Shown here one piece after another: positions 996-61,946 of a stretch of DNA of 64,000 nucleotides. Position 1 is the stretch's first letter. Every line of letters begins with the position of its first letter. The position numbers and the translations under genes were made by a program. The notes under the pieces are model-generated. The model searched no databases and was not told the DNA's origin. It worked only from the letters and a program-made list of their open reading frames with translations. The DNA comes from a phage. The DNA lies in sequence record PZ386967.1; one strand, 5' to 3'.

Positions 996-1964
996 TTAGA
1001 AGCTATCGCCTTCGGTTTCAAAGCGCCCTTTGTGTAGAGGCTCCAGTTCGATGAAGGTCATGTCAACCTGCGTGGACACGATACCATCATCTTTGTGAAC
1101 CGCGTATGAACTGTCCGGCGTCTCGTTGACGAACATGTTGGAAAGTACACAAGTGGAGATGCGGTGCAGCCACTGGTTACGCTCCCCATTGACCATGAAC
1201 GTAATGTCGAATGTTGAAGGATGCAAGTAAAACGCGCTGGAATTCTTGTTGTACTTGTACTCTGGGTACATATGCATCTTGAACATGCGGATGATCTCAC
1301 GGACCATCTTGGCTTCCTTCTGAGATCGCGGCGTGAATTTGAATGTAAATGGAATCTCACGGTTGCGAACACCCTGGAAGATCATCTCCACATATGGGTT
1401 GGTCATGGTGCCTGTGAACAACTCAAGGGTGTCATGAGCGTTAATGCTCGGCAGGAATGGAATAGCCTCCGACGCAGATTGGATAGCCTTGGTGGCAGCG
1501 AATCGCCCCATCTCCTTCCCGACGTTGAGCGCATCACCCAGTTTAAACTGAGTCATGTCTTGGGCGGCGCGGGAAAGGAACTGTGCCCCCATACCAGCCA
1601 GCCCCAGCTCGCTACCGTTCCAGCCAACACCATAGTTGGTTGTAATGGACTCCGGCATACACAGAACAATAGATTCGTTCGAACGAACGTGACGCGCCCA
1701 TGCATATTTGGTGATGGAACCAGACTTGGACCCATAGACCACAGGAGTATTCCCCAGAGGGTTCTGTATTGGGTTCTCGATAGTCTGAGTAGCCGTGTTG
1801 CCATAAGATGAACCGGAGATGCGGTTGATGTTGAATAGGACATAGTGTCCCAAGGTCTTACCCCCAGTAACGTCTAGGGGATAAGACAATTGCTTCTGAG
1901 CCTGGGACAATCCCTTCGTGTTCAGAACCTTGATCTTATCGATTGTCTTCTTGAAGTCGGCCAT
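996..1964 (-). CDS. hypothetical protein, possibly virion structural (late promoter upstream)
   Basis: 322-aa ORF, ATG start; CTAAATA motif on the minus strand about 34 nt upstream (plus coordinates 1998-2006). No family recognised. Confidence 0.5.
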   Translation of the reverse strand: MADFKKTIDKIKVLNTKGLSQAQKQLSYPLDVTGGKTLGHYVLFNINRISGSSYGNTATQTIENPIQNPLGNTPVVYGSKSGSITKYAWARHVRSNESIVLCMPESITTNYGVGWNGSELGLAGMGAQFLSRAAQDMTQFKLGDALNVGKEMGRFAATKAIQSASEAIPFLPSINAHDTLELFTGTMTNPYVEMIFQGVRNREIPFTFKFTPRSQKEAKMVREIIRMFKMHMYPEYKYNKNSSAFYLHPSTFDITFMVNGERNQWLHRISTCVLSNMFVNETPDSSYAVHKDDGIVSTQVDMTFIELEPLHKGRFETEGDSF

Positions 1965-1997
1965 GGTCTCAGCCCTTAAATAGATAGAGTGTTATGG

Positions 1998-2006
1998 CTA
2001 TTTAGG
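1998..2006 (-). promoter_or_regulatory. late-promoter-like motif CTAAATAGCC
   Basis: Same CTAAATA core as upstream of the structural genes at 40.4-62 kb; spacing to the ATG is about 34 nt. Confidence 0.4.
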
Positions 2007-24603: not shown

Positions 24604-24771
24604 TTACTTTTTCTTCAGCTCTTCCAGCTTGGCTTCAATTTGGTCCAGAATCTCTTTACCTTTCTGGACGATGGCTTCACCATCTTGCGCGTGTTTACGG
24701 AAGACCAAAGCACCAGCGATGAAGCCGACAACCGCGCCAGGAAGCGCATAAACCAGCAGATCTTGTAACAT
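24604..24771 (-). CDS. small membrane protein (55 aa, below the ORF-track size cutoff)
   Basis: Hand-translated ATG..TAA frame with hydrophobic segment YALPGAVVGFIAGALVF, sitting between the 411-aa gene and the terminator. Confidence 0.3.
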   Translation of the reverse strand: MLQDLLVYALPGAVVGFIAGALVFRKHAQDGEAIVQKGKEILDQIEAKLEELKKK

Positions 24772-24807
24772 GATAATATCCTCGCTTTATAGGCGAGGAT
24801 ATTTATA

Positions 24808-26043
24808 TCAGCGTTTCAAGAGTGCCATGAGGTTGACGCTGCTGGACTTCGGCTTGTCCTCAACCTTGCGCACAGGCATCTTCAGGTTCGTACATACCTC
24901 GGATGGCTCCCAGCGCGTACCCTTTTGCAGGTGCCAGATATGCAGAGGAACACCAGTCTCAAAGAACACAGGCATCTTCCACTTCTGGACGCCTGGAACG
25001 TGCCCTGCAGGAGCCTTTTCGCACAACAGGGTATCTGGCAGCCAGAGCGAACGGGCTTCCCAGAGCGCTGCGCAGGAGTATTCAGGCCAGACGCGTTCCA
25101 TGTAGTCTATTTCATCCCAGGTACGCTCTGCGTCCCACCCGATGTAACGGGTATTCTTCAGTCGGAAGAATTTCTTCAGCCAACAAGCACCGGAGGTTTC
25201 AAAGTTCAGACGGTTGATGAACGTCAGGTGTCCGAACTCAGCCACACAATCCTGGAACGCCTGCTCAAGGTCGGCCTCAAGGATGTCACACTCTTCATCC
25301 GTGATAGGGCAACCGTTGATCTTTTTCTTCCCGTGTTTAGTCACCCAATCGTCACGGTTGGACAAGAACGCCGCGCCATTACGGTTGGACTCGCTTCCAT
25401 CACGATCACGCAGCATGAAGCCAGGGACGTCAATGGTGTATTCGTTCCCGAAGACCATGTTCAGGGCTTCCAGGAAGTTCCAGGCGCTCAGGCGACCGAA
25501 GTATTTCCAGGACATCGCCGTGTCCCACAGCTGGGTGAATTGTTCTGTCTTATCGATGCACACCAACATCCCACGGAAAGCGTCATATTGAGTACGGCCA
25601 GCCAGCCAGTCAATATAGGACTGAACACACGGAATCATCTTGGACTTGCGGTAGCGGCAATCGGTATCGAATCGCATGCGATCAAAGTTCAGATTATACC
25701 AATCAGAGAAGCGCTGCATCTCTTCCTTAGACTGAGGCGGCACAGGGAACTCACTGTAGATCGTCCACGGCCCGACGGCGTTATAGCAACAACCCCACAG
25801 GAATGCCATCCAGATCTTGCGCTCGACTTTCTGTTCGAGGCTGATGCCTTCAGTGACTTCGATCGCATAGTCCATCAGACGCATCTGCTGGTTGTGCTCT
25901 TCTGTGTAGGACAGCGCCTCCACCCAAGCCTTGAGCAGGTACATGCGATTCTCAGGCTTGCGATAATCAACAGCCAGGTCAATCGGGTACTTCCATTCAG
26001 CCGGAGGTGTATAGCCCGTCGGCATTTTAGATAAATGATGCAT
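24808..26043 (-). CDS. hypothetical protein (candidate DNA-modification enzyme by context only)
   Basis: 411-aa ORF, ATG start, Trp/Cys-rich; no motif recognised. Confidence 0.5.
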   Translation of the reverse strand: MHHLSKMPTGYTPPAEWKYPIDLAVDYRKPENRMYLLKAWVEALSYTEEHNQQMRLMDYAIEVTEGISLEQKVERKIWMAFLWGCCYNAVGPWTIYSEFPVPPQSKEEMQRFSDWYNLNFDRMRFDTDCRYRKSKMIPCVQSYIDWLAGRTQYDAFRGMLVCIDKTEQFTQLWDTAMSWKYFGRLSAWNFLEALNMVFGNEYTIDVPGFMLRDRDGSESNRNGAAFLSNRDDWVTKHGKKKINGCPITDEECDILEADLEQAFQDCVAEFGHLTFINRLNFETSGACWLKKFFRLKNTRYIGWDAERTWDEIDYMERVWPEYSCAALWEARSLWLPDTLLCEKAPAGHVPGVQKWKMPVFFETGVPLHIWHLQKGTRWEPSEVCTNLKMPVRKVEDKPKSSSVNLMALLKR

Positions 26044-26404: not shown

Positions 26405-26604
26405 TTTGGTTCCTTGAATATTTTATAGCCAGCAGCGCCGATAGCCATAATCGCGCCGATACAATACAACATGGTCAGGTTCATCTTCTCTGAGGTTGTT
26501 AAGTCCAGAGGGGTGAAATGATAGGCTAGGGCAGTACACATTGAAACGGCTGCCATAACCAGACCAATGAACAACAGATAATTAGACAACCGTTTCATGA
26601 TCAC
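26401..26604 (-). CDS. small membrane protein
   Basis: 67-aa ORF with two hydrophobic helices; ATGA coupling. Confidence 0.4.
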   Translation of the reverse strand: MIMKRLSNYLLFIGLVMAAVSMCTALAYHFTPLDLTTSEKMNLTMLYCIGAIMAIGAAGYKIFKEPK

Positions 26605-27518
26605 CCCTTCTTCATCAGGTCAAGGAGAGAGCGCGACGCTGCCTTCGTTGCTTCTGGCTGGGCGCTCGCCTTGGTTTTAGTTTTGGATGCCTTCTGCGGC
26701 TTCTCAGGGACTCTGTGCGCCAAAGGATCCTGGCCGCCGATTTCACGAGTCATCGGATTGGTTTCACAGTAGGCGTAGAAGTCTTTGGTGTCCATGTTAA
26801 CTTCACGCAGTTCGGACCGTATCTGATGACAAATCGCATTACCCACAACCCACAGCGGGGCGTCGTATGGGAGCACCGCCAACTCGGACTGCTGTTTGGT
26901 CGTGAACTCCTGGGTGTTGGTCTCTGGCGCTTTATACAGGATATCCTGTCCGCTGTAATCATCAACAGCCACAGTGAAGCCCAGCGCCAGCATTTCGGCC
27001 TTCGACTTCTCAAACTCCTTGGAGTAAGATTCGTTGCGTGACCAGCCGGAGTTCCCTGCTTCTTTACCAGATCGACCACGGATACGAGCATCGTACTGAT
27101 AGCGGTCGGGGTACGCAAAGTACAGCAGCGCCAATGATTCAATCGGATAGTTCTTGAACATCCATTCAGGACGCCATTTGTCCGACAGCATGAGGGGTTC
27201 ACCCTCACACACCAGAGTGTATCCCTGAACCAACCAGCACTTGATTAGATCACGAGCAATATCGCCTGAGCCTGTAGCAGCATGGATTGCATCCATTGAA
27301 GTCCAGGAAGCCAGGCCGGATTTGTTAGACACGGTGTACTGTCCAACGAAGATTAACTTCAGCTCTCCGAACTTCAGGCCAAACGGGCGAGTCTTGTCAC
27401 CAACGGTGTAGGTCAGTTCGGTAGGCTCCAGCTTCGTACGGAGCCATTCGATGAACTGGACCACTCTCGTACCCTTGCCCGTGGCCGAGGTGCCTTTCAC
27501 TACGATAATTTTTGCCAT
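26601..27518 (-). CDS. P-loop kinase (polynucleotide kinase-like; candidate DNA or nucleotide kinase)
   Basis: N-terminal Walker A KIIVVKGTSATGKGT, similar in layout to T4 Pnk N-terminus (KIILTIGCPGSGKST); 305 aa. Confidence 0.55.
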   Translation of the reverse strand: MAKIIVVKGTSATGKGTRVVQFIEWLRTKLEPTELTYTVGDKTRPFGLKFGELKLIFVGQYTVSNKSGLASWTSMDAIHAATGSGDIARDLIKCWLVQGYTLVCEGEPLMLSDKWRPEWMFKNYPIESLALLYFAYPDRYQYDARIRGRSGKEAGNSGWSRNESYSKEFEKSKAEMLALGFTVAVDDYSGQDILYKAPETNTQEFTTKQQSELAVLPYDAPLWVVGNAICHQIRSELREVNMDTKDFYAYCETNPMTREIGGQDPLAHRVPEKPQKASKTKTKASAQPEATKAASRSLLDLMKKG

Positions 27519-28950: not shown

Positions 28951-29012
28951 TTCAATCACCTGTTTGTCAAAGGGTTAACAGGGGGAATTATATCCCCCTT
29001 TGGTTTATTGAA

Positions 29013-32012: not shown

Positions 32013-32091
32013 GTAATTCTCCAGGTTATCCGTGCCGTTAGCACGTGGGCATATTTAACCATAGAGCCATTCATTGACCAAGGAGTTTATT

Positions 32092-33584: not shown

Positions 33585-33612
33585 AAGAAAGGGGCTTAAC
33601 GCCCCTTTTCTT
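33585..33612. terminator. bidirectional terminator between convergent genes
   Basis: Hairpin AAAGGGGC-TTAA-CGCCCCTTT flanked by an A-run and a T-run. Confidence 0.55.
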
Positions 33613-34069
33613 ATTCTTCCCAGAAGTCTTCGTCGTCCCCGACAGCAGCCAGTTCCGTGTCCAGTTCTTCATCGGTAAACGGTGGCAGCACCCCGTTCTG
33701 AATCAGATAATCCATCTCATCATCTTCCAGCTGCAGGTCGGTGGCAATATACAGCGCTCCGCTGCCCTCTTCGTCCGTCTCGATACTGTACGAAGTGTAT
33801 GGCACCCCATTCACTGTAATGATGATAGACGTTGGATCCTTGGGATCTACGTGCGCCTCGAACGGCACACCATCAATCGGTGCATCTTCTAGGAAGGTAG
33901 CAAGTGCTACGGCGGCGCGGACAACATCAGTGCCTTCAACGCCCGCATAGATCTCTTCCGCGCCTGTCTCTTCACGATCAAACAGCTCAATCGTGATACC
34001 GTCTTGAACACCAGTCCATACAGGGATGTCATTGGTGTATTCTGATTCAAACAATTTGGAGGTTGGCAT
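33611..34069 (-). CDS. acidic hypothetical protein, late-expressed
   Basis: 152-aa very acidic ORF; late-promoter-like motif about 30 nt upstream; GAGGAA SD. Confidence 0.5.
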   Translation of the reverse strand: MPTSKLFESEYTNDIPVWTGVQDGITIELFDREETGAEEIYAGVEGTDVVRAAVALATFLEDAPIDGVPFEAHVDPKDPTSIIITVNGVPYTSYSIETDEEGSGALYIATDLQLEDDEMDYLIQNGVLPPFTDEELDTELAAVGDDEDFWEE

Positions 34070-34097
34070 GTTGGGTTCCTCAGTGGGTTAGCCATAT

Positions 34098-34109
34098 GGG
34101 GTATTTAGG
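34098..34109 (-). promoter_or_regulatory. late-promoter-like motif CCTAAATACCCC
   Basis: Same CTAAATACCCC as upstream of the tailspike genes, here on the minus strand ahead of the 33611..34069 gene. Confidence 0.4.
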
Positions 34110-34213
34110 CTTCCCGCTTGGCGAGGTCTGGTTTGTACAGGACGCCTCTCGGAAATATTGGAGGAAGGTTTTCATAGATACCCCACACGGATTGTATGGG
34201 GTATTCAGGAGGG

Positions 34214-35428
34214 TCAGGAAGGGGTGAATTCGTTTACAGGAACTGTTTCAGGGATAGCCAGCTCAGGGCATGCTGCCTTCATCGGCTCGATGTATGGCTT
34301 GCTACCCACAATCCAGAACAGAGTGTTCTCATTGAGCAACTCGGGCTTGTGTTGCTGAACCCAGGTCATGACCTTGCCTTCATAGCGAGGATGCAACTCA
34401 ATATCACCCCACTGATATTCCATCAGGTCATTATAACGAACCCAATTAGTGGTATGAAGATCCCAATGGTGTACCTCAAAGCGAGGAAGCACGACCTCTG
34501 GCTCTTCCTTCTGCCTGATACCACTTAGGAGGCCAGCCAGCGAAACGCTCTTAGAGGCATGCTGAAGCTCCTTCTTGCCGTGTACATAGTCTGGGTTGTC
34601 GTGATAGCGACGGGTAAAGTCGACAATGTGCGGTAGATTGGCATGTTTGCCGATGATGCGCAGACGACTCTCGATAAAGTCCAGGCGGTTCGGACCGATG
34701 CCAATCAGATACACACGCTTCAGATTAGGCTTCGGATGCATTGCCAGCCCGGTCAGGATGCTTGTGCAAGAGTTGCACGATCCGGCTGGGATGATCAGGT
34801 CAGTAATGTGATCAGGAATGTTGGCAACCTGCTCGCCACCCAACATATGGAACCCAGCAATGCGCTCAGGGGAGTGGGCTGTATGGTCGAGGGTGATACC
34901 ATACTCCAGATAATACGCCTTTGGATTCTGTTGTTCGATCAACTTCTTACAGCGCGGCTGGATGGTGCTGTTGTAACCCGAGCCGACGAAGTTGAACTCA
35001 CTACCAAACCAGGCTGACATTGCCACCATTTCATGGTTCATACAGGTGGTGGGTTTGGTCGCGCCGAGCACAGTAGTTGTCTTGCCGCCGAAGTGCCGAG
35101 AGACTGCCGTCGCCATAGGGGACTGCGGACTACCAACGACAGTACCATGGATGATGTCAGGGGAGCCTCCGGTCATGAGGTGCTCAACCATCAACCAGAT
35201 GGCCTGGCGGAGTTTGCTGCCGTTGATGCCCTGCTGGCCATTTGCATAATTGGACAGCGGCGCAAAATAATCTTCACGCTTGAACCAGACCTGCTGGTTG
35301 GTTTCGGGGTTGACGACAAGTTCGCACGGGGTGTGCTTGTAGAGATAATCTTCCCAATGGACCAGGTTGCGGTCGAGGGAAAGGATATCGAAGATGGTCT
35401 TGTTCATTCTATTTTCTCCTGTAGACAT
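34214..35428 (-). CDS. PLP-dependent enzyme, fold type II (ACC deaminase / D-cysteine desulfhydrase-like)
   Basis: WFKREDY...GINGSKLRQA...HGTVVGSPQSP...FGGKTTTVLG matches the KREDL / GGNKxRK / G-rich PLP-loop pattern of that family. Confidence 0.55.
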   Translation of the reverse strand: MSTGENRMNKTIFDILSLDRNLVHWEDYLYKHTPCELVVNPETNQQVWFKREDYFAPLSNYANGQQGINGSKLRQAIWLMVEHLMTGGSPDIIHGTVVGSPQSPMATAVSRHFGGKTTTVLGATKPTTCMNHEMVAMSAWFGSEFNFVGSGYNSTIQPRCKKLIEQQNPKAYYLEYGITLDHTAHSPERIAGFHMLGGEQVANIPDHITDLIIPAGSCNSCTSILTGLAMHPKPNLKRVYLIGIGPNRLDFIESRLRIIGKHANLPHIVDFTRRYHDNPDYVHGKKELQHASKSVSLAGLLSGIRQKEEPEVVLPRFEVHHWDLHTTNWVRYNDLMEYQWGDIELHPRYEGKVMTWVQQHKPELLNENTLFWIVGSKPYIEPMKAACPELAIPETVPVNEFTPS

Positions 35429-36122: not shown

Positions 36123-36245
36123 CGGTGTATCCTCAAATCTATGACAGGGGGTTAACGGTTAAATTTTAAACCCCCTTTGTATCATTGAACAAACTATGAT
36201 AAAGGAGGACATGCTTGGGTCGATAAGAAGATAATAAGACAGGGA

Positions 36246-36492: not shown

Positions 36493-36581
36493 TGGCGGAA
36501 GGTGAAGGATTCGAACCTTCGGGGGCTAAAAGCCCCACTCGATTAGCAGTCGAGTCCCTTAAACCTCTCGGGCAACCTTCC
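36493..36581 (-). tRNA. tRNA-Ser (anticodon GCU)
   Basis: Hand-folded cloverleaf: acceptor GGAAGGT/ACCTTCC, anticodon loop CTGCTAA, long variable arm, T-loop GGTTCGAATCC, encoded CCA. Confidence 0.8.
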
Positions 36582-36801
36582 AATTTGGACGGGCTTCACA
36601 CCCGATTGAGCATTTGATCTGCTGTAGCCCAACTCCCCGCGCTTCTCAGCGCCGATTGGTTAACTGGCGACCAGTGCCTTCTGGTTCGATCTCCTGGAAC
36701 TTTACAGGCTTTGCGCCCGACCATTTCTGGAAGTTGGGGCATCGTTTCCGATGTGGAGTCACCCCATTTTATACACAGCTGGCTGCAACGCTTACTGTGT
36801 T

Positions 36802-36886
36802 TGGTGTGAGTGGATGGATTCGAACCACCGCGCTGTTACGGGGAGATTTACAGTCTCCTGCATTCGACCGCTCTGCCACACTCACA
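36802..36886 (-). tRNA. tRNA-Tyr (anticodon GUA)
   Basis: Acceptor GTGAGTG/CACTCAC, anticodon stem GGAGA/TCTCC with loop CTGTAAA, long variable arm, T-loop TTCGAAT, encoded CCA. Confidence 0.75.
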
Positions 36887-37142
36887 TTTGGTCTGCCGCT
36901 GCGTGCTGGGCCACGCTCGAGGACATCGGCCATCCTTCCTCAGCTAATCCACGCAGCGGTAGATTTGTATCAGAGTGTCCGGTGTAGCAACCCGTGAGGT
37001 GCGCACTACTGTAGCCTCTACACTCTGAATTTGGTGGGCGTTACTATCGTCGTCTTCGGATTCCGTTCGGCTATTGGACAGAGGCTTGGAGCTTGTCGGT
37101 CGCGTACTTTATGCCTATTCACTTTCGTTCACACCCATTGTC

Positions 37143-37218
37143 TGGCGACGATGGCAGGACTTGAACCTGCGACATACGGTTTAACAGACCGCCGTTCTAC
37201 CGACTGAACTACATCGTC
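37143..37218 (-). tRNA. tRNA-Asn (anticodon GUU)
   Basis: Acceptor GACGATG/CATCGTC, anticodon loop CTGTTAA, T-arm CAGG-TTCAAGT-CCTG, encoded CCA. Confidence 0.8.
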
Positions 37219-37389
37219 TTGCAAATCACTATACCATATAAAGTTTATTGAACAAACATTTATTTTACAACAAACTGTATTGGCGGGGTCTGAGGCTTTT
37301 CACCTCACCTGCTGGGTTTGGCCGCCCAGCCGTTCTCTATGAGGATTCACTGTCCGGACAGCTATCCATTAAACTATCGCCCCTCAATA

Positions 37390-37466
37390 TGGTGATCCTG
37401 ATTGGGTTTGAACCAATGACCAATGAATTATGAGTTCACTGCTCTAACCGACTGAGCTACAGGACC
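37390..37466 (-). tRNA. tRNA-Met (anticodon CAU; initiator, elongator or Ile2 not resolved)
   Basis: Acceptor GGTCCTG/CAGGATC, D-arm TAGCTCAGTCGGTTAGAGCA, anticodon loop CTCATAA, T-loop GGTTCAAACCC, encoded CCA. Confidence 0.8.
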
Positions 37467-40062: not shown

Positions 40063-40380
40063 TCCGGAGCCTCACTCGATTGATTAAATGTCTCCGTTAT
40101 TATATTGGGAGTATGTTTATTGAATATAAACACAGGAATGACCAACAAAATAGGAGCGCGGTTTATTAATAGGTAAAAACTACTTTTCTACAACATCAAG
40201 AAACTGTATCCTAACGCAGTGCCCTTCGAGTTGTGAGTGTCAACGAACAACGAGAAGCAGCCTCCATGGCTGTGGAATGGTGCTGCCCGCATAGGGCGGT
40301 GTTACGAGCGAGGGCGTCAGCCCCCTCGCGAGTTATATTCGAATAAATTAAACGCGCGCGAGAGTTTTGATTCCCGTTGG

Positions 40381-44243: not shown

Positions 44244-44283
44244 ACTAAATACCCCTAGATGAAACGAACACATTTAGGGGTAT
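44244..44283 (+). promoter_or_regulatory. late-promoter-like motif ACTAAATAC plus 5' leader hairpin
   Basis: CTAAATA core, then inverted repeat ATACCCCTA / TAGGGGTAT whose 3' arm holds the only G-rich SD-like sequence before ATG 44289. Confidence 0.45.
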
Positions 44284-44288
44284 TTGAA

Positions 44289-47200
44289 ATGGCTAATAAA
44301 CCAACACAGCCTGTTTTCCCTCTCGGTCTGGTGGCTGAAGAGCAGTCTACTTTGGCTGGTGTCGTCAACACGGGTACGATTGAGCATGGACCAGATGCTG
44401 TCCTGACTTTACCCGAGGGTAATGCCAGCGCAGGACTCCCGTCTTCCGTTCGCTACAATGCCGACTCCGACGAATTTGAGGGCTTCTATGAAAATGGTGG
44501 ATGGTTGCCGCTGGGTGGCGGTGGTATCCGCTGGGAAGTCCTTCCGCATGCCTCTACGGTAATGCTCACTGAAGGGCGAGGCTATCTCATTAATAATACC
44601 ACAGGGGCATCTACAGTGGTTCTCCCTTCCCCTACGCGTATTGGGGATTCCGTTACTATTTGTGATGCTTATGGGAAATTTGCCACTTACCCATTGACCG
44701 TGTCTCCTTCTGGAAATAATTTGTATGGCTCCACTGAAGACATGGCTATAACAACTGATAACGTATCAGCAACGTTCACTTGGTCTGGACCTGAACAAGG
44801 TTGGATTATTACATCCGGCGTCGGTCTTGGCCAAGGCCGTGTCTACAGTCGTGAAATCTTTACAAAAATTTTGGCGTCTGAAACAAGTACTGTCACTCTC
44901 AATACTCCACCAACAATCGTGGACGTGTATGCTGACGGAAAACGCCTTGCGGAATCCAAATATTCACTAGATGGGAATGTAATCACTTTCAGTCCTTCTT
45001 TGCCAGCCAGCACAGAACTTCAGGTGATTGAATATACTCCTATTCAATTGGGTAATGGCGGTGGTTCTAGTTCTTCTACGATTACTTGGGTCTATAATGG
45101 GGGTTCAGCGATTGGCGGTGAAACCGAAATCACGTTGGACGTCGTTGTTGATGATGTTCCGGCCATTGATATAAACGGAAGTCGTCAGTATAAAAATCTG
45201 GGATTCACATTCGATCCATTAACCAGTAAAATCACTCTGGCGCAAGAACTGGAACCAGAAGATGAAGTTGTTGTAATCATCAATGGAACACCAAACATCT
45301 ATAATCAAATTGATCATACTTTGCGGGAAGTGGCTCGTGTAACCAATGTTAAAGATACAGAGGTCGTTTATTTTAGTGTTGGTGCTGTGCTAAGCGGGTA
45401 TAAAGTTATCTATGATAAAGTAACACAGAGATCATATTTTATTCCAGAGCTACCGACTGGAACCACGGCAGTCAGCCTTAGTTCTTCGGCTGTACTTGTG
45501 CATTCTGCTGGTAGTGTTGATCTGGGCGCATTAGCCGTATCTCGTGAGGAGTATGTGACCTTACCTGGTTCATTCGATACAGGTGTAACTGTTAATACCA
45601 AGAATGAGTTGGTTGTGAGTAACGATATTAAATATCGTTGGGATGGTTCTGTACCCAAAGTAGTCCCTCCAGAATCTACCCCATTGGGTACAGGAGGTGT
45701 TGGTCCAGGGGCATGGCTTGTAGTTGGTGTTGTTGGATTAGAGCAACGTTTAGCCTCCTGGAAAGGTTCTTCTCTTATTGATTCCGGTAGTCTGTCTCTT
45801 TACAAAAAGAGCGGTGTATTCGGTGATGGTGGGAATGTATCCGATAAATATCAGGTTGTTCTACATTCAGATGGGTTCTGGTACAAGTACAATGGGACAC
45901 TACCTGTTAGTTATGGTGCTGCCCCAGACTCTTCTTGGACTAACGTTGGTAAGCTAACAGGGTTTAATGAACACTCACCTGAGAATTTTGGTGCAATCCC
46001 CAATGACCCTAGTTTTGACTGTTTACCTGCTATAAAACTAGCTATAGCCACAGGTACATTAAATCTGAATGGGAATTCTACCTACCACGTAACGGATGAG
46101 GTTGTTATACCTTCTTACTTACGTGGGAATCTAAACGGGGCAACAATTAAAGCAATTGGCTCCGTATGGCCTACGTTAAAAGCTGTTGTACGCGTTAGTA
46201 AATTTCCTGTCGGTACAGCAACAGTGGATGTGGCTAATACAGAGAATCAAGTGCGAGGATTACGCTTAATCGGTAGCTTAAACGTAGACTGTGCAGATAT
46301 TGCATCATATGGTTTTTATGCACGTCTTCTGTGTGCAGAATCTGAGATGGGTAGCATCTATGCATATAATGCTAATAGATATGGCATTGTAATGTTTGCT
46401 TGCTGGTATTTTCAAATGGGCACTCTCCATGCAAACAACTGTGCAAGGGGTATGGCATTAGGTTATTCAACAGAAGGTGAGCAAGGGGATACCTATGTGA
46501 ATGCTACACACTTCCCTCACATTAGTGCATGGGGTACTGATAAGTCTACGGGACTAGGTTATGACCCAATCACGGATGATGCGAGTAAATATACAATAGG
46601 TGCTGGTATTATCTTAGGTCGTGGTTTGTCTACCAGTGTTGGTGTGATTTGCTCTGAGAATACGGCAGGTGCTGGGGTAGTAACAATGGACCCTGCTGCG
46701 TGGGACATTGGGGTCATGTACTGTGAGGGTAATAGTAAAGACTTTACTCAAGAGGGTGAACCCAAGGTGTCATTGCTGTCATCCAAGGCCAACAGTGAAA
46801 GTCATACGCTTACCATCTCCACACTCCACCTTTCCGCAGGTTGTGGCATTTTAACCAGAAGCAATCAAGAGCGTGTGCTAATCAGAAGTCTATATCGCTT
46901 TGATAACGCAAAAACCTTCCACTCTTACTGCACAGCAGACACAGTAGAGGTTGGTAGCAGCAACTACTATGTACTTAACGGGCATAATTACAATGCACCT
47001 GCTGCACTTATTAAGGAACCGCTCAATGTAGACTTTGTGCGTTCAGGGTTGACTTTAAGTGAGTGGACATCTACAGTTATCGGTCATTTTGCTGGTAGTA
47101 CAGCAGAACAACAGCTTTATGTTAAGCTCCCAGCAAGTCCCAGCGGCCTAGATTTACAGATAGATAGTGAGGATGGGACGGAATATATCACTGTAACTGG

Positions 47201-47597: not shown

Positions 47598-47696
47598 AAA
47601 CCCCGCTTTGGCGGGGTTCTTATTATACCTTTGTTCATAAATTTGATTAGTTCAGACTAAATACTCCATATTGGTCATCCTTTATGGGGTATTATC
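47598..47696 (+). repeat. duplicated tailspike upstream cassette, copy 1 (hairpin, late-promoter-like motif, leader hairpin)
   Basis: About 85% identical by eye to 50575..50675; includes GACTAAATAC at 47655-47664 and leader hairpin ATACTCCATA / TATGGGGTAT at 47661-47692. Confidence 0.6.
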
Positions 47697-50126
47697 ATGA
47701 TTTCTCAATTCAATCAACCACGCGGCTCCACTTCCATAGAAGTTAACAAACAATCTATCGCTCGAAATTTCGGTGTCAAAGAAGACGAAGTCGTTTATTT
47801 CACTGCTGGTATTGATCTCAGTGGATTTAAAGTAATTTATAATGAGTCTACCCAACGGGCTTATTCTCTTCCTTCAGGTATTGTTTCAGGAACGACTGCG
47901 ATAAGTCTGGATAAAAGAGCTATCCTCACTCATTCAGCGGGTTCTGTTGATCTTGGGGAATTAGCAGTAAGCCGCGAAGAATACGTAACCTTACCTGGTT
48001 CATTTGATACTGGTGTAACTGTTAATACTAAGAATGAATTAGTTGTCTTTACCGATGGTAAGTATCGCTGGGATGGGGCACTGCCTAAAGAAGTGCCTGC
48101 TGGTTCAACCCCTACATCAACCGGTGGTGTTGGAACAGGTGCATGGGTTAGTGTTGGTGATGCGAGTTTGAGGTCAATAGCTCAATACAGAGCCAATACC
48201 ATTGAAGATTTAAAATCATTGCCATTTGCGGTTGGAGATATTGTTAATGTCGCTGGGTATTATGATGTTTTTGATGGGGCACAGCATTACCGAGTGATTA
48301 GTGGTACAGATGATGGAACAGGGGTTCAGCTCAATAATGGTTTGTGGGCAAATATTATCATTAATGGCGATGCTTGTGTAGATTGGTTTGGCGCTAAAGG
48401 TGATGGTGTTGCAGATGACTGGTGGGCAATCAATAAAGCTATTAACGCCTCGCTCTCTACCGATTATCAGGGTGGTTGGTGGGAGACGTCAAGTAGAAAC
48501 CCTAAATTTAAAGTTAGACTTAGTAGACGCTCTTACAGAATCACTAAACAGATTTTACTACCCCCTTACATAGAGTTTTATGGTATGGGTTCGCGCTGGT
48601 ATTTTTCGGGTGATAATAATTCTCGCTTAATCCCTGATTTTGATAATCCGTTGCAATTCGCTGTGAAATCTGCTAGCTATATTGTTGAAACCGGTGAACT
48701 AGCACCTGAGGGGTGGTATTCTGGGGTGGTTTGGGTTGACCCAAAAAAACTAACGACTTGTCATGGTATTAAAACTTATGGATATAGCATCGAACCAACA
48801 AAACAAATTTTAGGCGGTATAAGACTGATAGCGAGTCCAATTTCTCATGTATACGATATATTCATAACAAATGTTGATTTTGGAGTTTTACTGAATTGTT
48901 CATGGGTGAGTAAGGTTGACGTTAAAACTCATCATAATAAATGCGGGGTTATGTCTAGTCATGATGGTAATAACACTCACGTGGATGGTTATTTTACAGG
49001 GACAGAAATCAAACCGCTTGATGGTAATCCTTACCTCAACCCAATAGAGTCTTTAGACTCTACAACAGGGCTCCAAGACCAATCTATATCTGACCCAGAC
49101 AGTAAAATAGGTGTGATTTTTTATTGGTCACAGGGGTCAACAAGTACGAATATGACGTGTGAGGGTAACACTATTTCGTTGGCTGTGGCTAAGGGTGGTG
49201 CTGATGTAAGGTGTTTATACTCAGAACGTAATTCAGATTGTACATTTACTGGGTACAGTTCACTAGTTACAATTGGTGAAATAACTGGCATTGGTGACGG
49301 TGGAACTTTTGAGCTTGGTGTAAATAATACTATTTCGTTAGACAAAGACACTCAGTATGGTGTCGCTAAACGATTTAAGTACGTGAGCGAGTGGGGTAAT
49401 AAGCTGTTTATGCCCTCTAGCTGGAAAGAATACACCAAAGGTTGTTTAGTTGAAGGGTTTGATTATAGCGAAATTTTTGTAGATGCGATAAATGGAGATG
49501 ACACCAATGTTGGCTCCAGTCTTCACCCTGTGAAAACTTTGGAGAGAGCTCTAACGCTTGTGAATTCAGTGTATACTACATCTGACTTGCTAAGCTCAGT
49601 GCCGAGGGATAGAGTAATAAAGTTAGTAGGCTCAGCAACATACTACCCAGACGGACAGCATAGGTTCGTGGGCGGCTCGTTAAAAATTACAAAAGCTGAT
49701 AACTCACGACCGACTGTTAATTTATCAAAACCAATCCGATTTAACGACACATCCCTAGTATTTGAGGAAGTAAATTTAGTGCGACCAACAGATGACCACG
49801 GGAATAATGAGAATGGCGCAATTTTCCTTGAGGATGGGTGTAATGAAGTCAGATTGAAAAACTGCGATCTAAGTCTACAAAAATTCAGCTTCTTATATCC
49901 TACTTGGGGCTTTGCTGGAATATGTACCTTGGTGTTAAACGGGGTTAGTGTTACTGGTGATTCAACAACAAGAATGATACAAACAGCTGATGGATATCAT
50001 GATTTGCACTTGTTTAATGTAATTAGCTACGAGACAACTTACACTGGAGGAATAGAGTCAAGACCAGATAAAGGCTATGATATACCAGCAGATAGACGTG
50101 GTCATATATTGGGTGTATCAATATAA
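47697..50126 (+). CDS. tailspike protein with N-terminal anchor module (TSP1-like)
   Basis: 809 aa; the conserved module sits at the N-terminus; a 50-nt stretch (48114-48163) is identical to 51597-51646; Asn/Gly-rich C-terminal region. Confidence 0.65.
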   Translation: MISQFNQPRGSTSIEVNKQSIARNFGVKEDEVVYFTAGIDLSGFKVIYNESTQRAYSLPSGIVSGTTAISLDKRAILTHSAGSVDLGELAVSREEYVTLPGSFDTGVTVNTKNELVVFTDGKYRWDGALPKEVPAGSTPTSTGGVGTGAWVSVGDASLRSIAQYRANTIEDLKSLPFAVGDIVNVAGYYDVFDGAQHYRVISGTDDGTGVQLNNGLWANIIINGDACVDWFGAKGDGVADDWWAINKAINASLSTDYQGGWWETSSRNPKFKVRLSRRSYRITKQILLPPYIEFYGMGSRWYFSGDNNSRLIPDFDNPLQFAVKSASYIVETGELAPEGWYSGVVWVDPKKLTTCHGIKTYGYSIEPTKQILGGIRLIASPISHVYDIFITNVDFGVLLNCSWVSKVDVKTHHNKCGVMSSHDGNNTHVDGYFTGTEIKPLDGNPYLNPIESLDSTTGLQDQSISDPDSKIGVIFYWSQGSTSTNMTCEGNTISLAVAKGGADVRCLYSERNSDCTFTGYSSLVTIGEITGIGDGGTFELGVNNTISLDKDTQYGVAKRFKYVSEWGNKLFMPSSWKEYTKGCLVEGFDYSEIFVDAINGDDTNVGSSLHPVKTLERALTLVNSVYTTSDLLSSVPRDRVIKLVGSATYYPDGQHRFVGGSLKITKADNSRPTVNLSKPIRFNDTSLVFEEVNLVRPTDDHGNNENGAIFLEDGCNEVRLKNCDLSLQKFSFLYPTWGFAGICTLVLNGVSVTGDSTTRMIQTADGYHDLHLFNVISYETTYTGGIESRPDKGYDIPADRRGHILGVSI

Positions 50127-50574: not shown

Positions 50575-50675
50575 AAAACCCCTCTTCGGCGGGTTCTTGT
50601 TATACCTTTGTTCATAAATTTATTAGTTCAGACTAAATACCCCATATTGGCAAATCCTCTATGGGGTATCTTCAA
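50575..50675 (+). repeat. duplicated tailspike upstream cassette, copy 2
   Basis: Contains GACTAAATAC at 50631-50640 and perfect 10-bp leader hairpin ATACCCCATA / TATGGGGTAT at 50637-50669; the ORF-track ATG at 50661 lies inside the hairpin arm. Confidence 0.6.
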
Positions 50676-53228: not shown

Positions 53229-55145
53229 ATGAACGAAATGTTCTCACAAGGTGGTAAAGGCTCTACTGGTATTCTTACCAATAAGCAAGCCATTGCCCGT
53301 AAGTTTGGTGTTAAACAGAATGAGGTAGTCTACTTTGCTGTAGGTGTAGACTTAGGTGGTTACAAAGTAATTTATGATAAGGCTACTCAGCGTGCCTATT
53401 CCTTGCCTGCTGACATTGGTTCAGGGGTGACTGCTGTAAGTCTTGGTACTAATGCCGTACTTGTACATTCAGCTGGTTCCGTAGATCTTGGGGAATTAGC
53501 CGTATCTCGTGAAGAATACGTTACATTGTCTGGGTCGTTTGACAATGGTGCTACACTTAATGTTAAAAATGAATTGCTTACCCATACAACAGGTAAGTAT
53601 CGCTGGGATGGTGAGTTACCTAAAACCGTTTCTTCTGGCTCAACTCCTGAAAGTGCTGGAGGTACTGGGTTAGACAAGTGGGTTAGTGTTGGTGATGCAG
53701 CCTTGAGAATCAATCTTGCATCTGATGATGGCGCTGGTCTGGTCGGATTTAAGTCACCTCTGGCCAACTCCATTAAGCGAACACTACATGATAAAAATAA
53801 AGACCTGGTGTCAGTCAAGGACTTCGGGGCTGTTGGCGACGGTGTGACCGATGATACCGCCGCGTTTCAGGCAGCAATAGATTCGAAAAAGAGTTTATAC
53901 ATACCGGATGGTATTTATCTTATAAGCTCTACTTTAATCATAACTGCCACTGATAGTCTATGTATTGTTGGTAATAGTTTTGGACATGTTAATGACCAAA
54001 CAACAGGTTCAGTAATTAAGTTTACCGGGTTAGCGTCACCCGCCATTCGGGTTCAAGGTGGTGCGATAGGAGCTAAGATTTCTGGACTTTTCTTGGATAT
54101 TCAGGACTCATCGTCTGATGGTTTTGATTTCGGAGGGGCTTGGTACCTAAAACTTCAAGATTGCGTTGTCAGAAACGCCCGGTACGGTGTTTATTTACAT
54201 TACGACGCCCCAGACTATTTTTCCGGGGTGGCTGAGCTAACTTCATGCTATTTCGCTAAATGTGCAAATGGTGTAAAAACGTCAAAAGTAGATATCAACG
54301 TAGTTAAAGTTGATAATTGTACTTTCTTTGATGGTGTTAACGGTGTTCTTATCGGAGACTCAGGTACTGCAAGTAGTGTACGAAATTTCATAGTCAGAGA
54401 CTCTCTATTTGAAGCAAACACGGGCTATGACGTAGGTGTTGTCGCCGGGGGTGCACAGCAGTTACTGGTAGATGGTAACTACTTTGAAGAGAATACTGCT
54501 TCTTCTTTAGCCAGGGTATATGTTGCAGATGATAGTCACTCACCGCGTTCTTCTTCTGTTTCAATAACCAACAACACGTTTAGCAAAGATACGACAGGCG
54601 ATCTTATTTTCCTGTCCGGTATTTCCGGTGTTCTTGTTAAACAAAACTGGTCAGCATTTGGGGGTATAGGTTTTGTAAGGGCTATTAATATCGACAATTA
54701 TGAGATAGATAGATGCTCTACCGTATCTGGAGCAACAGCCTGTAATGTTGTTATAGATAACGTCTTACAAGTACCTGACACTTCTGTTAATAAGATTTAT
54801 ATTAACAAGGCCCAAGAATACGCATTTATTGGGTCTACCGTCGCAAAAAGGTCGAGTGCATGTACACGGGCAATGATCAATTTTAATGGAATTTCGGGGT
54901 CGTCAGTGTATGCGGATGGAGCAACTGTAACTAAAACCGGGACCGGTAAATATACCGTCAACCTATCTAATACTATGCCCTCCTCTGCTTATGCTGTTTT
55001 ATGCAGTGTTGGCAATACCACTAGCGGAGGGAAATTAGTAATTAATGTCGTAAGTACATCCCCTGACTCTTTTAACTTAGAAGTTTTTGACCTTTCTGGA
55101 TCGTATCAAGATTCAGGATACATATCTGCCGCAGTTGTTATGTAA
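53229..55145 (+). CDS. tailspike protein with N-terminal anchor module and beta-helix-like C-terminus (TSP3-like)
   Basis: 638 aa; N-terminal module about 65% identical to that of the 47697 gene; C-terminal repeats typical of right-handed beta-helix (pectate-lyase-like) folds. Confidence 0.65.
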   Translation: MNEMFSQGGKGSTGILTNKQAIARKFGVKQNEVVYFAVGVDLGGYKVIYDKATQRAYSLPADIGSGVTAVSLGTNAVLVHSAGSVDLGELAVSREEYVTLSGSFDNGATLNVKNELLTHTTGKYRWDGELPKTVSSGSTPESAGGTGLDKWVSVGDAALRINLASDDGAGLVGFKSPLANSIKRTLHDKNKDLVSVKDFGAVGDGVTDDTAAFQAAIDSKKSLYIPDGIYLISSTLIITATDSLCIVGNSFGHVNDQTTGSVIKFTGLASPAIRVQGGAIGAKISGLFLDIQDSSSDGFDFGGAWYLKLQDCVVRNARYGVYLHYDAPDYFSGVAELTSCYFAKCANGVKTSKVDINVVKVDNCTFFDGVNGVLIGDSGTASSVRNFIVRDSLFEANTGYDVGVVAGGAQQLLVDGNYFEENTASSLARVYVADDSHSPRSSSVSITNNTFSKDTTGDLIFLSGISGVLVKQNWSAFGGIGFVRAINIDNYEIDRCSTVSGATACNVVIDNVLQVPDTSVNKIYINKAQEYAFIGSTVAKRSSACTRAMINFNGISGSSVYADGATVTKTGTGKYTVNLSNTMPSSAYAVLCSVGNTTSGGKLVINVVSTSPDSFNLEVFDLSGSYQDSGYISAAVVM

Positions 55146-61914: not shown

Positions 61915-61942
61915 GACTAAATACCTTCAAAATTGAGGGTAT
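61915..61942 (+). promoter_or_regulatory. late-promoter-like motif GACTAAATAC plus leader hairpin
   Basis: CTAAATA core followed by inverted repeat ATACCTTCAA / TTGAGGGTAT ending 5 nt before ATG 61947. Confidence 0.45.
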
Positions 61943-61946
61943 CGAT

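What the first reader, a model, noticed from the sequence alone, without database searches (positions are those of the whole stretch)
33611..34109. Late-promoter-like motifs inside the early block, ahead of an acidic protein gene and the 996..1964 gene
CCTAAATACCCC lies on the minus strand (plus 34098-34109) about 30 nt upstream of the very acidic 152-aa gene at 33611..34069, and CTAAATAGCC (plus 1998-2006) lies upstream of the 996..1964 gene. Late control of genes embedded among replication genes suggests they encode virion-associated proteins such as internal or scaffold proteins.
Basis: inference. Interest (0 to 1): 0.4.

Follow-up and report, generated by a model that had tools for sequence, protein, structure and literature searches.

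The report
Known late promoters before virion genes
Both motifs are real copies of the late-promoter box already described for ViI-like (Ackermannviridae) phages, and both sit in front of genes whose products were already found in virions of close relatives, so the finding is correct but ordinary.

Summary
The window comes from an Ackermannviridae (ViI-like, Agtrevirus/Limestonevirus-type) phage. CCTAAATACCCC is at 34098-34109 (-), 28 nt before the ATG of the 152-aa gene. CTAAATAG is at 1998-2005 (-), 34 nt before the 322-aa gene. Eight of the nine CTAAATA copies in the window lie 15-45 nt upstream of a long ORF on the same strand (P about 7e-10), and both boxes are conserved across genera.

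CTAAATAcCcc is a published motif of this family. The GenBank record of Dickeya phage LIMEstone1 already marks these two sites as 'putative late promoter'. It labels the downstream products, ORF174 (96% identical to the acidic protein) and ORF23 (gp48), as 'confirmed structural protein'. Sajous1 virions gave 31 spectra for the acidic homolog.

The 322-aa protein is the T4 gp48 baseplate tail-tube cap. It lies in a small gp4|gp48-gp53 late cluster and is neither an internal nor a scaffold protein. The acidic protein belongs to a small, family-restricted group with no detectable fold relative.

My own inference is that the acidic protein is a prohead-core-targeted internal head protein. Its invariant N-terminus (S-x-L-F-E) fits the T4 gp21 L/I-x-E cleavage rule and matches the N-terminus of LIMEstone1's own scaffold protein. 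The neighbouring gene, reduced to a pseudogene here, encodes in relatives a virion ADP-ribosyltransferase with a T4 IPIII-like capsid targeting sequence. No transcript mapping exists.

The parts
34098..34109 (-). CCTAAATACCCC, the late-promoter-type box of the acidic gene. In relatives its TAA is the stop codon of the upstream ART gene.
   Evidence: Exact match. CTAAATA at 30-33 nt before the ATG is conserved in 9 phages of at least 5 genera, including Bue1 and RCIP0012 where the upstream coding sequence differs. Annotated 'putative late promoter' in LIMEstone1.
34070..34097 (-). Predicted leader with GAGGA Shine-Dalgarno (34077-34081), unstructured.
   Evidence: Read from the sequence. Fold z-score is -0.5 for the leader taken from the promoter box to the ATG and +0.3 for the leader alone, so there is no significant hairpin.
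33611..34069 (-). 152-aa acidic protein gene (phrog_3852), ortholog of LIMEstone1 ORF174 and Sajous1 gp115.
   Evidence: phrog_3852 at E=3.7e-81, no Pfam match. 96% identity to LIMEstone-type proteins and 78% to Sajous1 gp115. The homologs were detected in virions by mass spectrometry. N-terminal M-x-x-S-x-L-F-E is invariant. AlphaFold2 pTM 0.70 with disordered termini.
33588..33608 (.). Bidirectional intrinsic terminator closing the convergent units.
   Evidence: Detected on both strands, 8-9 bp stem plus T-run. Annotated as a terminator in LIMEstone1.
34080..34208 (-). Remnant of the ART-PolyVal gene: degraded box CTGAATACCCC (34198-34208), leader hairpin (34178-34204), ATG at 34175, and 31 codons out of frame after a roughly 390-bp deletion.
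   Evidence: Alignment with LIMEstone1 and AV101. The intact gene in LIMEstone1 matches PF18760 at E=5.2e-12. Hairpin z-score -4.85.
1996..2006 (-). CCTAAATAGCC, the late-promoter-type box of the gp48-gp53 operon.
   Evidence: Conserved as CTAAATAG in CBA120 and Klebsiella 0507-KN2-1, TTAAATAA in phiMAM1, and CCTAAATAA in Vibrio phage K356. Annotated as a late promoter in LIMEstone1.
996..1964 (-). 322-aa gp48 baseplate tail-tube cap gene, followed by gp53 (430-984).
   Evidence: phrog_230 at E=7e-114. PF11091 scores 23.5 bits against a cut-off of 20.2. PF11246 matches the next gene. Annotated gp48 in CBA120, Det7 and others.
1976..1982 (+). TTAAATA box facing the other way, 32 nt before the gp4 head-completion gene (2015-2629).
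   Evidence: LIMEstone1 annotates a divergent pair of late promoters at the same place.
36163..36189 (-). Early-type promoter TTCAAT-N15-TAAAAT upstream of the 214-aa gene, the PLP-enzyme gene and the acidic gene.
   Evidence: 3 matches in the window against 0.06 expected. TTCAAT[N14]TATAAT is the other published family motif. No terminator was detected between it and the acidic gene.

Best explanation
The two CTAAATA boxes are the Ackermannviridae version of the T4 late promoter (TATAAATA). That promoter type is read by host RNA polymerase carrying the phage gp55-type late sigma factor, with gp33 and the gp45 sliding clamp.

**Box at 1999-2005.** It drives the gp48-gp53 baseplate genes. A divergent TTAAATA box at 1976-1982 drives gp4.

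**Box at 34098-34109.** It gives the 152-aa acidic gene its own late transcript: a short unstructured leader, a GAGGA ribosome-binding site, and a terminator at 33588-33608. This is in addition to possible read-through from an early-type promoter 2 kb upstream. The product is a virion protein.

**Further inference.** I infer that the acidic protein is taken into the prohead core through its N-terminal peptide (MPTSKLFE) and trimmed after L-F-E by the gp21-type prohead protease. On this reading it stays inside the head with the DNA, like the T4 internal proteins and Alt.

**Shown versus inferred.**
- Shown here: motif presence, placement statistics, cross-genus conservation, protein identities, and conservation of the N-terminal motif.
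- Shown by others in relatives: presence of the homologs in purified virions.
- Inferred: late timing, position of the transcription start, capsid targeting, cleavage, and ejection.
For: **Promoter.**
- The motif is an exact match to the published CTAAATAcCcc.
- 8 of 9 CTAAATA copies are correctly placed upstream of ORFs, P=6.7e-10. The downstream genes include gp6, three tail-spike genes, the 1612-aa structural protein and a neck-region gene.
- The box is conserved in 9 phages regardless of the upstream coding sequence, and for gp48 out to a Vibrio phage.
- In the window the box before the intact acidic gene is unchanged, while the box before the ART pseudogene carries an A-to-G change.
- LIMEstone1 encodes a late sigma factor, gp33 and gp45. 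CBA120, ViI and AG3 do too.
- LIMEstone1 annotates both sites as late promoters.

**Virion association.**
- LIMEstone1 Table 2 lists ORF174, ORF173 and ORF23.
- That paper states that all its unknown structural proteins have ViI counterparts. The Vi01 homolog is named 'phage associated protein'.
- Sajous1 gp115 gave 31 spectra and gp116 gave 10 spectra.
- The single LIMEstone1 peptide is explained by the protein having only 4 K/R residues. The 12.5% coverage equals one 19-residue tryptic peptide.

**Internal head protein.**
- M1, S4, L6 and F7 are invariant and E8 is at least 90% conserved, in homologs down to 36% identity.
- This stretch is disordered in the model, with mean pLDDT 36 over the first 10 residues.
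- L-F-E fits the gp21 rule L/I-x-E with N-terminal propeptides of 7-65 residues.
- The LIMEstone1 scaffold gp22 starts MKPELQKLFE. In the same way, T4 gp22 (MLKEQLIAE) resembles the T4 IPIII targeting sequence (MKTYQEFIAE).
- The adjacent ART starts MKTFLEYLKE-AS or MKTFLEFYRE-ST, against T4 IPIII MKTYQEFIAE-AS and IPI MKTFKEF.
- A head maturation protease is annotated in LIMEstone1.
Against: - No transcription start sites or time-course data exist for any member of the family. The CBA120 paper says the late recognition sequence was not identified, and the 2024 review does not mention promoters.
- The bare 7-mer is not over-represented.
- No terminator separates the acidic gene from the early-type promoter at 36163-36189, so early transcription by read-through is possible.
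- The virion proteomes also contain clearly non-structural proteins: RegB with 31 spectra in Sajous1, and rIIB, ligase and gp44 in LIMEstone1. Detection in a virion preparation therefore does not prove that the protein belongs to the virion.
- An L/I-x-E motif in the first 12 residues would occur by chance in roughly 10% of proteins. The acidic N-terminus matches the T4 targeting sequence at only 4 of 10 positions.
- Position 10 is D in some Kuttervirus homologs.
- No peptide data covering the N-terminus could be retrieved.
Confidence: 0.72

Rival explanations
1. The acidic protein is a genuine virion component but belongs to the tail, baseplate or neck rather than the head interior. On this reading the conserved N-terminal motif is an assembly interface, not a targeting and cleavage signal.
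For: - In Kuttervirus and Limestonevirus the same gene string includes a 'tail needle knob' structural protein.
- CBA120 authors expected unknown ViI particle proteins to replace missing T4 baseplate parts.
- The 2024 review describes the ViI/AG3 particle proteins as mostly tail-associated.
Against: - The N-terminal KLFE is shared with the phage's own scaffold protein, and the neighbouring ART carries a T4-like capsid targeting sequence.
- The termini are disordered and the protein is extremely acidic, which is unusual for a tail building block.
- No fold similarity to any known tail protein was found.
Confidence: 0.15
2. The acidic protein is a late cytoplasmic factor that merely co-purifies with particles. 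It could be a chaperone, partner or inhibitor of the neighbouring ADP-ribosyltransferase, or some other assembly chaperone.
For: - It lies immediately downstream of the ART gene in most relatives.
- It is small and very acidic.
- The virion preparations contain other non-structural proteins.
Against: - The gene and its promoter are kept intact in this phage, and in vB_CECAV_050 and ChubbyThor, where the ART gene is deleted.
- 31 spectra from a protein with only about 3 usable tryptic peptides suggests abundance in CsCl-purified particles.
Confidence: 0.1
3. The box at 34098-34109 does not act as a promoter. On this reading it persists as the 3' end and stop codon (GCC-TAA) of the ART gene, or as a copy of the ART promoter. 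The acidic gene would then be expressed from the upstream early-type promoter by read-through.
For: - In most relatives the TAA of CTAAATA is the ART stop codon.
- The 15 nt CCTAAATACCCCATA are identical to the ART gene's own promoter region.
- There is an early-type promoter upstream with no terminator in between.
Against: - The box is present at the same distance from the ATG in Bue1, where the upstream gene ends 14 nt earlier and is unrelated. It is also present in RCIP0012, which has a different C-terminus.
- It is unchanged in the window, where the ART reading frame is destroyed, while the pseudogene's own box has mutated.
- 8 of 9 CTAAATA copies in the window are positioned the same way before late-type genes.
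Confidence: 0.08

Closest known systems
Dickeya phage LIMEstone1 ORF174 (YP_007237496) with its annotated 'putative late promoter' (Adriaenssens et al. 2012, PMC3296691)
   Same: The protein is 96% identical and the same length. The promoter, leader and terminator sequences are identical, and it has the same neighbours (PLP enzyme, DNA polymerase). It is recorded as an MS-confirmed structural protein.
   Different: LIMEstone1 keeps the upstream ART gene (ORF173). The window has it deleted to a 31-codon remnant with a mutated box.
T4 late promoters (TATAAATA; gp55/gp33/gp45-dependent)
   Same: Shares the TAAATA core. There is no -35 element, it sits 23-40 nt before late-gene start codons, and homologs of the late factors are present in the family.
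   Different: The first position is C rather than TA. The extension immediately downstream is often G+C-rich (cCcc), whereas T4 is A+T-rich there. Never mapped experimentally in this family.
T4 internal proteins IPI/IPII/IPIII and Alt (capsid-targeted, gp21-processed, ejected with the DNA)
   Same: Small late virion proteins with a short N-terminal peptide ending in L/I-x-E. The neighbouring ART is functionally analogous to Alt and carries a near-copy of the IPIII targeting sequence. The genes lie next to the tRNA cluster, as does T4 ipI.
   Different: There is no sequence or fold homology between the acidic protein and any T4 IP. T4 IPs are described as basic, whereas this protein has a pI of about 4. 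Targeting, cleavage and ejection are untested.
T4 gp48 baseplate tail-tube cap
   Same: The 322-aa product matches PF11091 above its cut-off and phrog_230. It is followed by gp53 and found in virions of relatives.
   Different: None of note. It is a routine ortholog.
T4 gene e / soc / 49 / I-TevI arrangement (late promoter inside a hairpin that hides the ribosome-binding site in longer, earlier transcripts). Cited from my own knowledge: McPheeters et al. 1986, Gott et al. 1988.
   Same: Six other late boxes in the window, and 6-8 of about 28 in LIMEstone1, are embedded in a significant hairpin. These include the endolysin and an intron HNH endonuclease. The 5' arm of the hairpin starts in the ATA of the box and the 3' arm carries the Shine-Dalgarno sequence.
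   Different: The two promoters of this finding do not have such a hairpin (z -0.5 and -1.7). The acidic gene's box carries the cCcc extension without a complementary partner, although Bue1's ortholog does have one.

Membership tests
Ackermannviridae 'CTAAATAcCcc' regulatory motif | Sequence CTAAATAcCcc in an intergenic or gene-end position upstream of a gene | tested here: met
   Exact 11-mer at 34098-34108. The gp48 site matches only the CTAAATA core (CTAAATAgCc). The motif is quoted in PMC7283392.
T4-type (gp55-dependent) late promoter | TATAAATA-like box about one helical turn upstream of the transcription start, with no -35 element | tested here: inconclusive
   The TAAATA core is present and placed 23-40 nt before start codons. 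Start sites are unknown, so the distance to +1 cannot be checked.
T4-type (gp55-dependent) late promoter | The phage encodes gp55, gp33 and gp45 homologs | not tested
   These genes were not found within the 64-kb window by the ORFs I scanned. They are annotated in LIMEstone1 and stated for CBA120, ViI and AG3.
T4-type (gp55-dependent) late promoter | Transcription is replication-coupled and late in infection | not testable with these tools
   No RNA-seq or primer-extension data for the family were found in the library.
T4 gp48 baseplate tail-tube cap (PF11091 / phrog_230) | Profile match above the curated threshold, and synteny with gp53 | tested here: met
   PF11091 scores 23.5 bits (cut-off 20.2). 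phrog_230 at E=7e-114. The next gene matches PF11246 (gp53).
phrog_3852 / LIMEstone1 ORF174 family of virion proteins | Full-length homology | tested here: met
   E=3.7e-81 over residues 1-152. 278 phage records match, all Ackermannviridae-type. Only 8 representatives in 1.84 billion proteins.
T4-like capsid-targeted internal head proteins | N-terminal targeting peptide of about 10 residues ending in an L/I-x-E site for the gp21-type protease | tested here: inconclusive
   L6-F7-E8 is invariant or nearly so, and shared with the scaffold gp22 N-terminus. Only 4 of 10 positions match T4 MKTYQEFIAE.
T4-like capsid-targeted internal head proteins | Proteolytic removal of the propeptide, location inside the head, ejection with the DNA | not testable with these tools
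   The peptide-level MS table for Sajous1 is truncated in the held copy and has no rows for gp115.
T4-like capsid-targeted internal head proteins | Presence in purified virions | tested here: met
   Taken from published proteomes of relatives: LIMEstone1 ORF174 and Sajous1 gp115. Nothing is known for this exact phage.
Type III secretion class I chaperone fold (CesT/SycE-like) | Significant structural similarity | tested here: not met

The most novel reading that the evidence does not exclude
The acidic protein and the adjacent ART-PolyVal enzyme could form an Ackermannviridae counterpart of the T4 internal-protein/Alt system. On this reading they are late-made proteins carried into the prohead core by a short N-terminal peptide that mimics the scaffold N-terminus, trimmed by the prohead protease, and ejected into the host with the DNA.

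The orphan-fold, pI-4 protein would then be an ejected anti-host factor. For example, it could be a DNA-mimic-like inhibitor protecting the hypermodified genome, as T4 IPI* does against GmrSD.

The CBA120 paper stated that ViI-like phages have no Alt homolog. The ART-PolyVal with an IPIII-like targeting sequence would be a non-homologous functional analog of Alt that the paper did not recognise.
Probability: 0.3. Interest if true: 0.45.

Novelty: already known. Interest (0 to 1): 0.18.

Why it matters
As stated, the finding adds nothing to the record. The motif, the two promoter sites and the virion status of both products have been in the literature and in GenBank annotation since 2012.

It is a useful positive control for the first-stage reader, which inferred late control and virion association from raw sequence and got both right.

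What is left to learn is modest:
- Experimental mapping of late transcription starts in Ackermannviridae has not been reported.
- The idea that this family packages an ADP-ribosyltransferase and an orphan acidic protein through a T4-like capsid targeting peptide could be tested directly with existing mass-spectrometry data.
- If confirmed, it would give a handle on host-takeover or anti-defence functions in a phage family widely used for biocontrol.

Tried and rejected
- **Pfam on the acidic protein:** no family.
- **PDB sequence profile search:** one weak match, E=0.12 to AliC, not significant.
- **Sajous1 'ferritin operon':** I first suspected that gp214-217 was this locus. The record shows it is a different place. 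The real homologs are gp115 and gp116.
- **Peptide-level test of the cleavage site:** I searched Sajous1 Table S3 for peptides of gp115 and gp116. The stored file is truncated and holds none.
- **Literature not usable:** the proteome papers for phiPD10.3 and phiD3 give their protein lists only in figures. The ViI proteome paper (PMC2953684) is not held.
- **Transcriptome data:** a literature search for Ackermannviridae RNA-seq data found nothing relevant.
- **RBS-hiding hairpin at the two promoters of the finding:** rejected. The z-scores are -0.5 and -1.7, and the latter reflects the palindrome made by the two divergent boxes.
- **Other targeting-like N-termini in the window:** a scan of window ORFs found only the acidic protein.
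Full report
**What the window is.** A 4-kb stretch around the finding matches 269 phage records. The best are Agtrevirus/Aglimvirinae-type Ackermannviridae (vB_CECAV_050, AV101, LHE287, fGh-Ecl02) at 96-97% identity, then Ag3, SKML-39 and the Dickeya Limestoneviruses. Gene content fits:
- gp53, gp48 and gp4 at the left end
- topoisomerase II, rIIA and rIIB, a Hoc-like protein and DNA polymerase
- four tRNAs at 36493-37466
- a plus-strand structural block of gp6, tail spikes and a 1612-aa protein

**The observation.** CTAAATACCCC is an exact match at 34098-34108 on the minus strand. The ATG of the 152-aa ORF is at 34069, with 28 nt in between and a GAGGA ribosome-binding site at 34077-34081. 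It lies 34 nt before the ATG at 1964.

The 11-mer with at most one mismatch occurs six times against 0.55 expected. The bare 7-mer is not over-represented (9 against 4.9), but its placement is far from random. Eight of the nine copies lie 15-45 nt upstream of an ATG that opens an ORF of at least 150 codons on the same strand. Only 5.5% of positions qualify, so the binomial P is 6.7e-10. The other six well-placed copies precede gp6, three tail-spike genes, the 1612-aa structural protein and a neck-region gene.

**Conservation.** CTAAATA sits 30-33 nt before the start of the acidic gene in all nine phages examined. These were the window, AV101, CAU_YEP3, phiDP10.3, LIMEstone1, Kuttervirus dinky, a Klebsiella Taipeivirus-like phage, RCIP0012 and Erwinia phage Bue1.

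In most of them the TAA of the box is also the stop codon of the upstream gene, which could explain the conservation. Three observations argue against that:
- In Bue1 the upstream gene is different and ends 14 nt earlier.
- In RCIP0012 the upstream gene has different C-terminal codons.
- In the window the upstream reading frame is destroyed.

The box is intact in all three.

For gp48, CTAAATAG is present in CBA120 and Klebsiella 0507-KN2-1, TTAAATAA in Serratia phiMAM1 and CCTAAATAA in Vibrio phage K356. The 50-bp gp4|gp48 spacer also holds a TTAAATA box on the plus strand (1976-1982), 32 nt before the gp4 start. The weak 'hairpin' there is simply the two divergent boxes.

**What is already known.**
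- CTAAATAcCcc is quoted as one of 'two unique regulatory motifs' of these phages in the EspM4VN paper (PMC7283392).
- The LIMEstone1 paper located 33 late promoters by similarity to T4 (PMC3296691). Its GenBank record carries 'putative late promoter' features at exactly the two homologous sites: before ORF174 and, as a divergent pair, before gp48 and gp4.
- The same record labels ORF174, ORF173 and ORF23 (gp48) 'confirmed structural protein'. Table 2 gives 12.5% coverage and 1 peptide for ORF174, 11.84% and 1 peptide for ORF173, and 20.19% and 4 peptides for gp48.
- The window's acidic protein is 96% identical to the LIMEstone-type protein. It has only four K/R residues, so 12.5% coverage corresponds to exactly one 19-residue tryptic peptide, EETGAEEIYAGVEGTDVVR. 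The low peptide count therefore reflects composition rather than scarcity.
- The LIMEstone1 authors state that all their unknown structural proteins have ViI counterparts. The Vi01 homolog is named 'phage associated protein'.
- In CsCl-purified Sajous1 virions, gp115 gave 31 spectra, gp116 gave 10 and the gp48 homolog gave 17. I confirmed from the Sajous1 record that gp115 is the acidic homolog (78% identity) and gp116 the neighbouring gene.
- Late timing itself has not been measured. The CBA120 paper says the late recognition sequence was not yet identified, the 2024 family review does not mention promoters, and I found no transcriptome.

**The 322-aa gene.** It is the T4 gp48 baseplate tail-tube cap (phrog_230 at E=7e-114; PF11091 above its cut-off) and is followed by gp53. 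It is a baseplate part, not an internal or scaffold protein. It sits in a small late cluster rather than among replication genes. Scattered late genes are normal for this family.

**The acidic gene in its context.** Reading the minus strand from 36200 down gives this order:
1. an early-type promoter, TTCAAT-N15-TAAAAT, at 36163-36189 (three such sites in the window against 0.06 expected)
2. a 214-aa gene
3. a 404-aa PLP-dependent enzyme gene
4. a gene remnant
5. the late box and the acidic gene
6. a strong bidirectional terminator at 33588-33608

No terminator was detected between the early-type promoter and the acidic gene. The gene therefore probably has dual input: read-through plus its own late box. 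'Inside the early block' is a fair description of this gene.

**The remnant next door.** In LIMEstone1, AV101, Sajous1 and most other relatives a gene of about 150 aa lies between the PLP enzyme and the acidic gene. It matches PF18760, the ADP-ribosyltransferase of polyvalent proteins (E=5.2e-12, 47.2 bits against a cut-off of 31.2), and it is itself a virion protein.

In the window it has lost about 390 bp. The ATG at 34175 and 12 codons (MKTFLQYFREAS) remain, then the frame shifts, and the 31-codon ORF ends at TGA 34082-34080. Its own box reads CTGAATACCCC (34198-34208). vB_CECAV_050 and ChubbyThor align colinearly over this region, so they share the deletion. The enzyme is therefore dispensable. 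The box before the dead gene has decayed, while the one before the live gene has not.

**What the acidic protein may be.**
- It has no Pfam family. Only eight representative clusters exist among 1.84 billion proteins. There is no significant fold neighbour in PDB or BFVD, and the recurring weak T3SS-chaperone hits are below significance.
- The AlphaFold2 model is fair (pTM 0.70) and shows a beta-rich core with two main helices. Residues 1-13 and 132-152 are disordered.
- The most conserved parts of the family are precisely those disordered ends. M1, S4, L6 and F7 are invariant and E8 is at least 90% conserved, and a C-terminal DDFW is conserved, in homologs down to 36% identity.
- L-F-E fits the T4 prohead protease rule: cleavage after L/I-x-E, with N-terminal propeptides of 7-65 residues (PMC9026906).
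- In T4 the IPIII capsid targeting sequence MKTYQEFIAE|AS resembles the scaffold gp22 N-terminus MLKEQLIAE|AQ. In LIMEstone1 the scaffold gp22 begins MKPELQKLFE|G and the acidic protein begins MPTSKLFE|SE, so both share KLFE.
- The major capsid protein has L-G-E|S-D at residues 49-51, and a head maturation protease is annotated.
- The neighbouring ART begins MKTFLEYLKE|AS (AV101), MKTFLEFYRE|ST (Sajous1) or MKTFLQYLQE|SE (LIMEstone1). These are close copies of the T4 IPIII and IPI (MKTFKEF…) leaders.

I therefore think it more likely than not that both proteins enter the prohead core and are trimmed there, like the T4 IPs and Alt. This is inference. An L/I-x-E near an N-terminus is not rare by chance, and no peptide evidence for the cleavage could be retrieved.

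**A related pattern, not part of the finding.** Six other late-type boxes in the window have a significant hairpin. They are at 44245, 47657, 50633, 61917, the TATAAATA at 24800-24807, and the pseudogene's box, with z-scores from -3.6 to -8.5. The 5' arm starts in the ATA of the box and the 3' arm contains the Shine-Dalgarno sequence (GGGG, GAGG or GGAG) 5-9 nt before the ATG.

For the ART leader the arms are identical in seven phages while the loop varies. Among LIMEstone1's author-annotated late promoters, 6-8 of about 28 evaluable sites share this design, including the endolysin (z=-11) and the intron-encoded HNH endonuclease I-LimII.

If transcription starts about one helical turn after the box, as in T4, late transcripts would lack the 5' arm and be translatable. 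Read-through transcripts would then hide the ribosome-binding site, which is the arrangement known for T4 e, soc, 49 and I-TevI (cited from my own knowledge). This would explain most of the 'cCcc' extension of the published motif as an anti-Shine-Dalgarno arm.

The two promoters of this finding do not follow the design (z=-0.5 and -1.7). The acidic gene's box carries CCCC with no partner, although its Bue1 ortholog has a full hairpin (z=-4.1).

**Verdict.** Everything in the finding as written is already in the literature and in GenBank annotation. The residual open points are experimental proof of late initiation, where in the particle the acidic protein sits, and whether it is processed and ejected.

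Noticed in passing
window 34080-34208 (-): The ADP-ribosyltransferase (ART-PolyVal, PF18760) gene that precedes the acidic gene in most relatives is a pseudogene here. About 390 bp are deleted, 12 N-terminal codons (MKTFLQYFREAS) are kept, the frame is shifted, and its late box is mutated to CTGAATACCCC. The same deletion appears in vB_CECAV_050 and ChubbyThor. The intact protein starts with a near-copy of the T4 IPIII capsid targeting sequence. The CBA120 paper stated that ViI-like phages have no Alt homolog.
   Followed up: yes
window 44245-44291, 47657-47699, 50633-50678, 61917-61949 (+); 24769-24810 and 34178-34204 (-); LIMEstone1 record 54250-54282, 121700-121733, 123260-123297, 135156-135190, 139325-139355: A subclass of late-type boxes is embedded in a strong hairpin. 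The 5' arm begins in the ATA of the box, and the 3' arm carries the Shine-Dalgarno sequence. This is the T4 gene e / I-TevI type of arrangement and would account for the 'cCcc' extension of the published motif as an anti-SD arm. In LIMEstone1 the subclass includes the endolysin and the intron HNH endonuclease.
   Followed up: partly
window 24604-24807 (-): A canonical T4-type TATAAATA box plus hairpin precedes an unlisted 55-aa ORF (MLQDLLVYALPGAVVGFIAGALVFRK…). It has one predicted membrane helix and a charged tail, so it is possibly a lysis-related small membrane protein. The CBA120 paper (2011) reported that no holin or lysis enzyme had been identified for CBA120, ViI or AG3.
   Followed up: no
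window 28987-29012, 36163-36189, 40099-40124 (all -): Three copies of the early-type motif TTCAAT-N14/15-TAWAAT (0.06 expected). They lie upstream of the gene after the DNA polymerase, of the 214-aa gene heading the PLP-enzyme/acidic-gene string, and of the 189-aa gene next to gp6.
   Followed up: partly
window 1976-1982 (+) and 1999-2005 (-): The 50-bp spacer between gp4 and gp48 holds two divergent late-type boxes, TTAAATAG and CTAAATAG, which form an inverted repeat. LIMEstone1 annotates the same pair.
   Followed up: yes
window 32052-32057 (-): TTAAATA lies 39 nt before the DNA polymerase start. LIMEstone1 also annotates a 'putative late promoter' there, which is odd for a replication gene and may be chance.
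   Followed up: no
window 33611-33670 (-), protein residues 133-152: The acidic protein ends in a conserved disordered tail, DE-LD…DD(E/D)DFW(E/D). D148 and W150 are invariant down to 36% identity. Its role is unknown; it could be a second processing or interaction motif.
   Followed up: partly
window 34214-35428 (-) and 26601-27518 (-): The 404-aa PLP-dependent enzyme (a weak PF00291 match, below the Pfam cut-off) and the 'guanylate kinase'-like protein (phrog_4409) are candidates for the thymidine hypermodification pathway described for ViI and CBA120. This link is from the literature and my own knowledge and was not tested here.
   Followed up: no
window 61957-61963 (+): The only CTAAATA copy not upstream of a gene lies 10 nt inside the 216-aa ORF that starts at 61947, and 40 nt after the properly placed box at 61917.
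   Followed up: no
protein P0027 (Salmonella phage Vi01 homolog): The Vi01 database entry for the acidic protein diverges over about 25 residues (IMHRYRARMCPRCRSPCNVLRRR) where all other homologs are conserved. This looks like a compensated frameshift or a sequencing error in that record.
   Followed up: no
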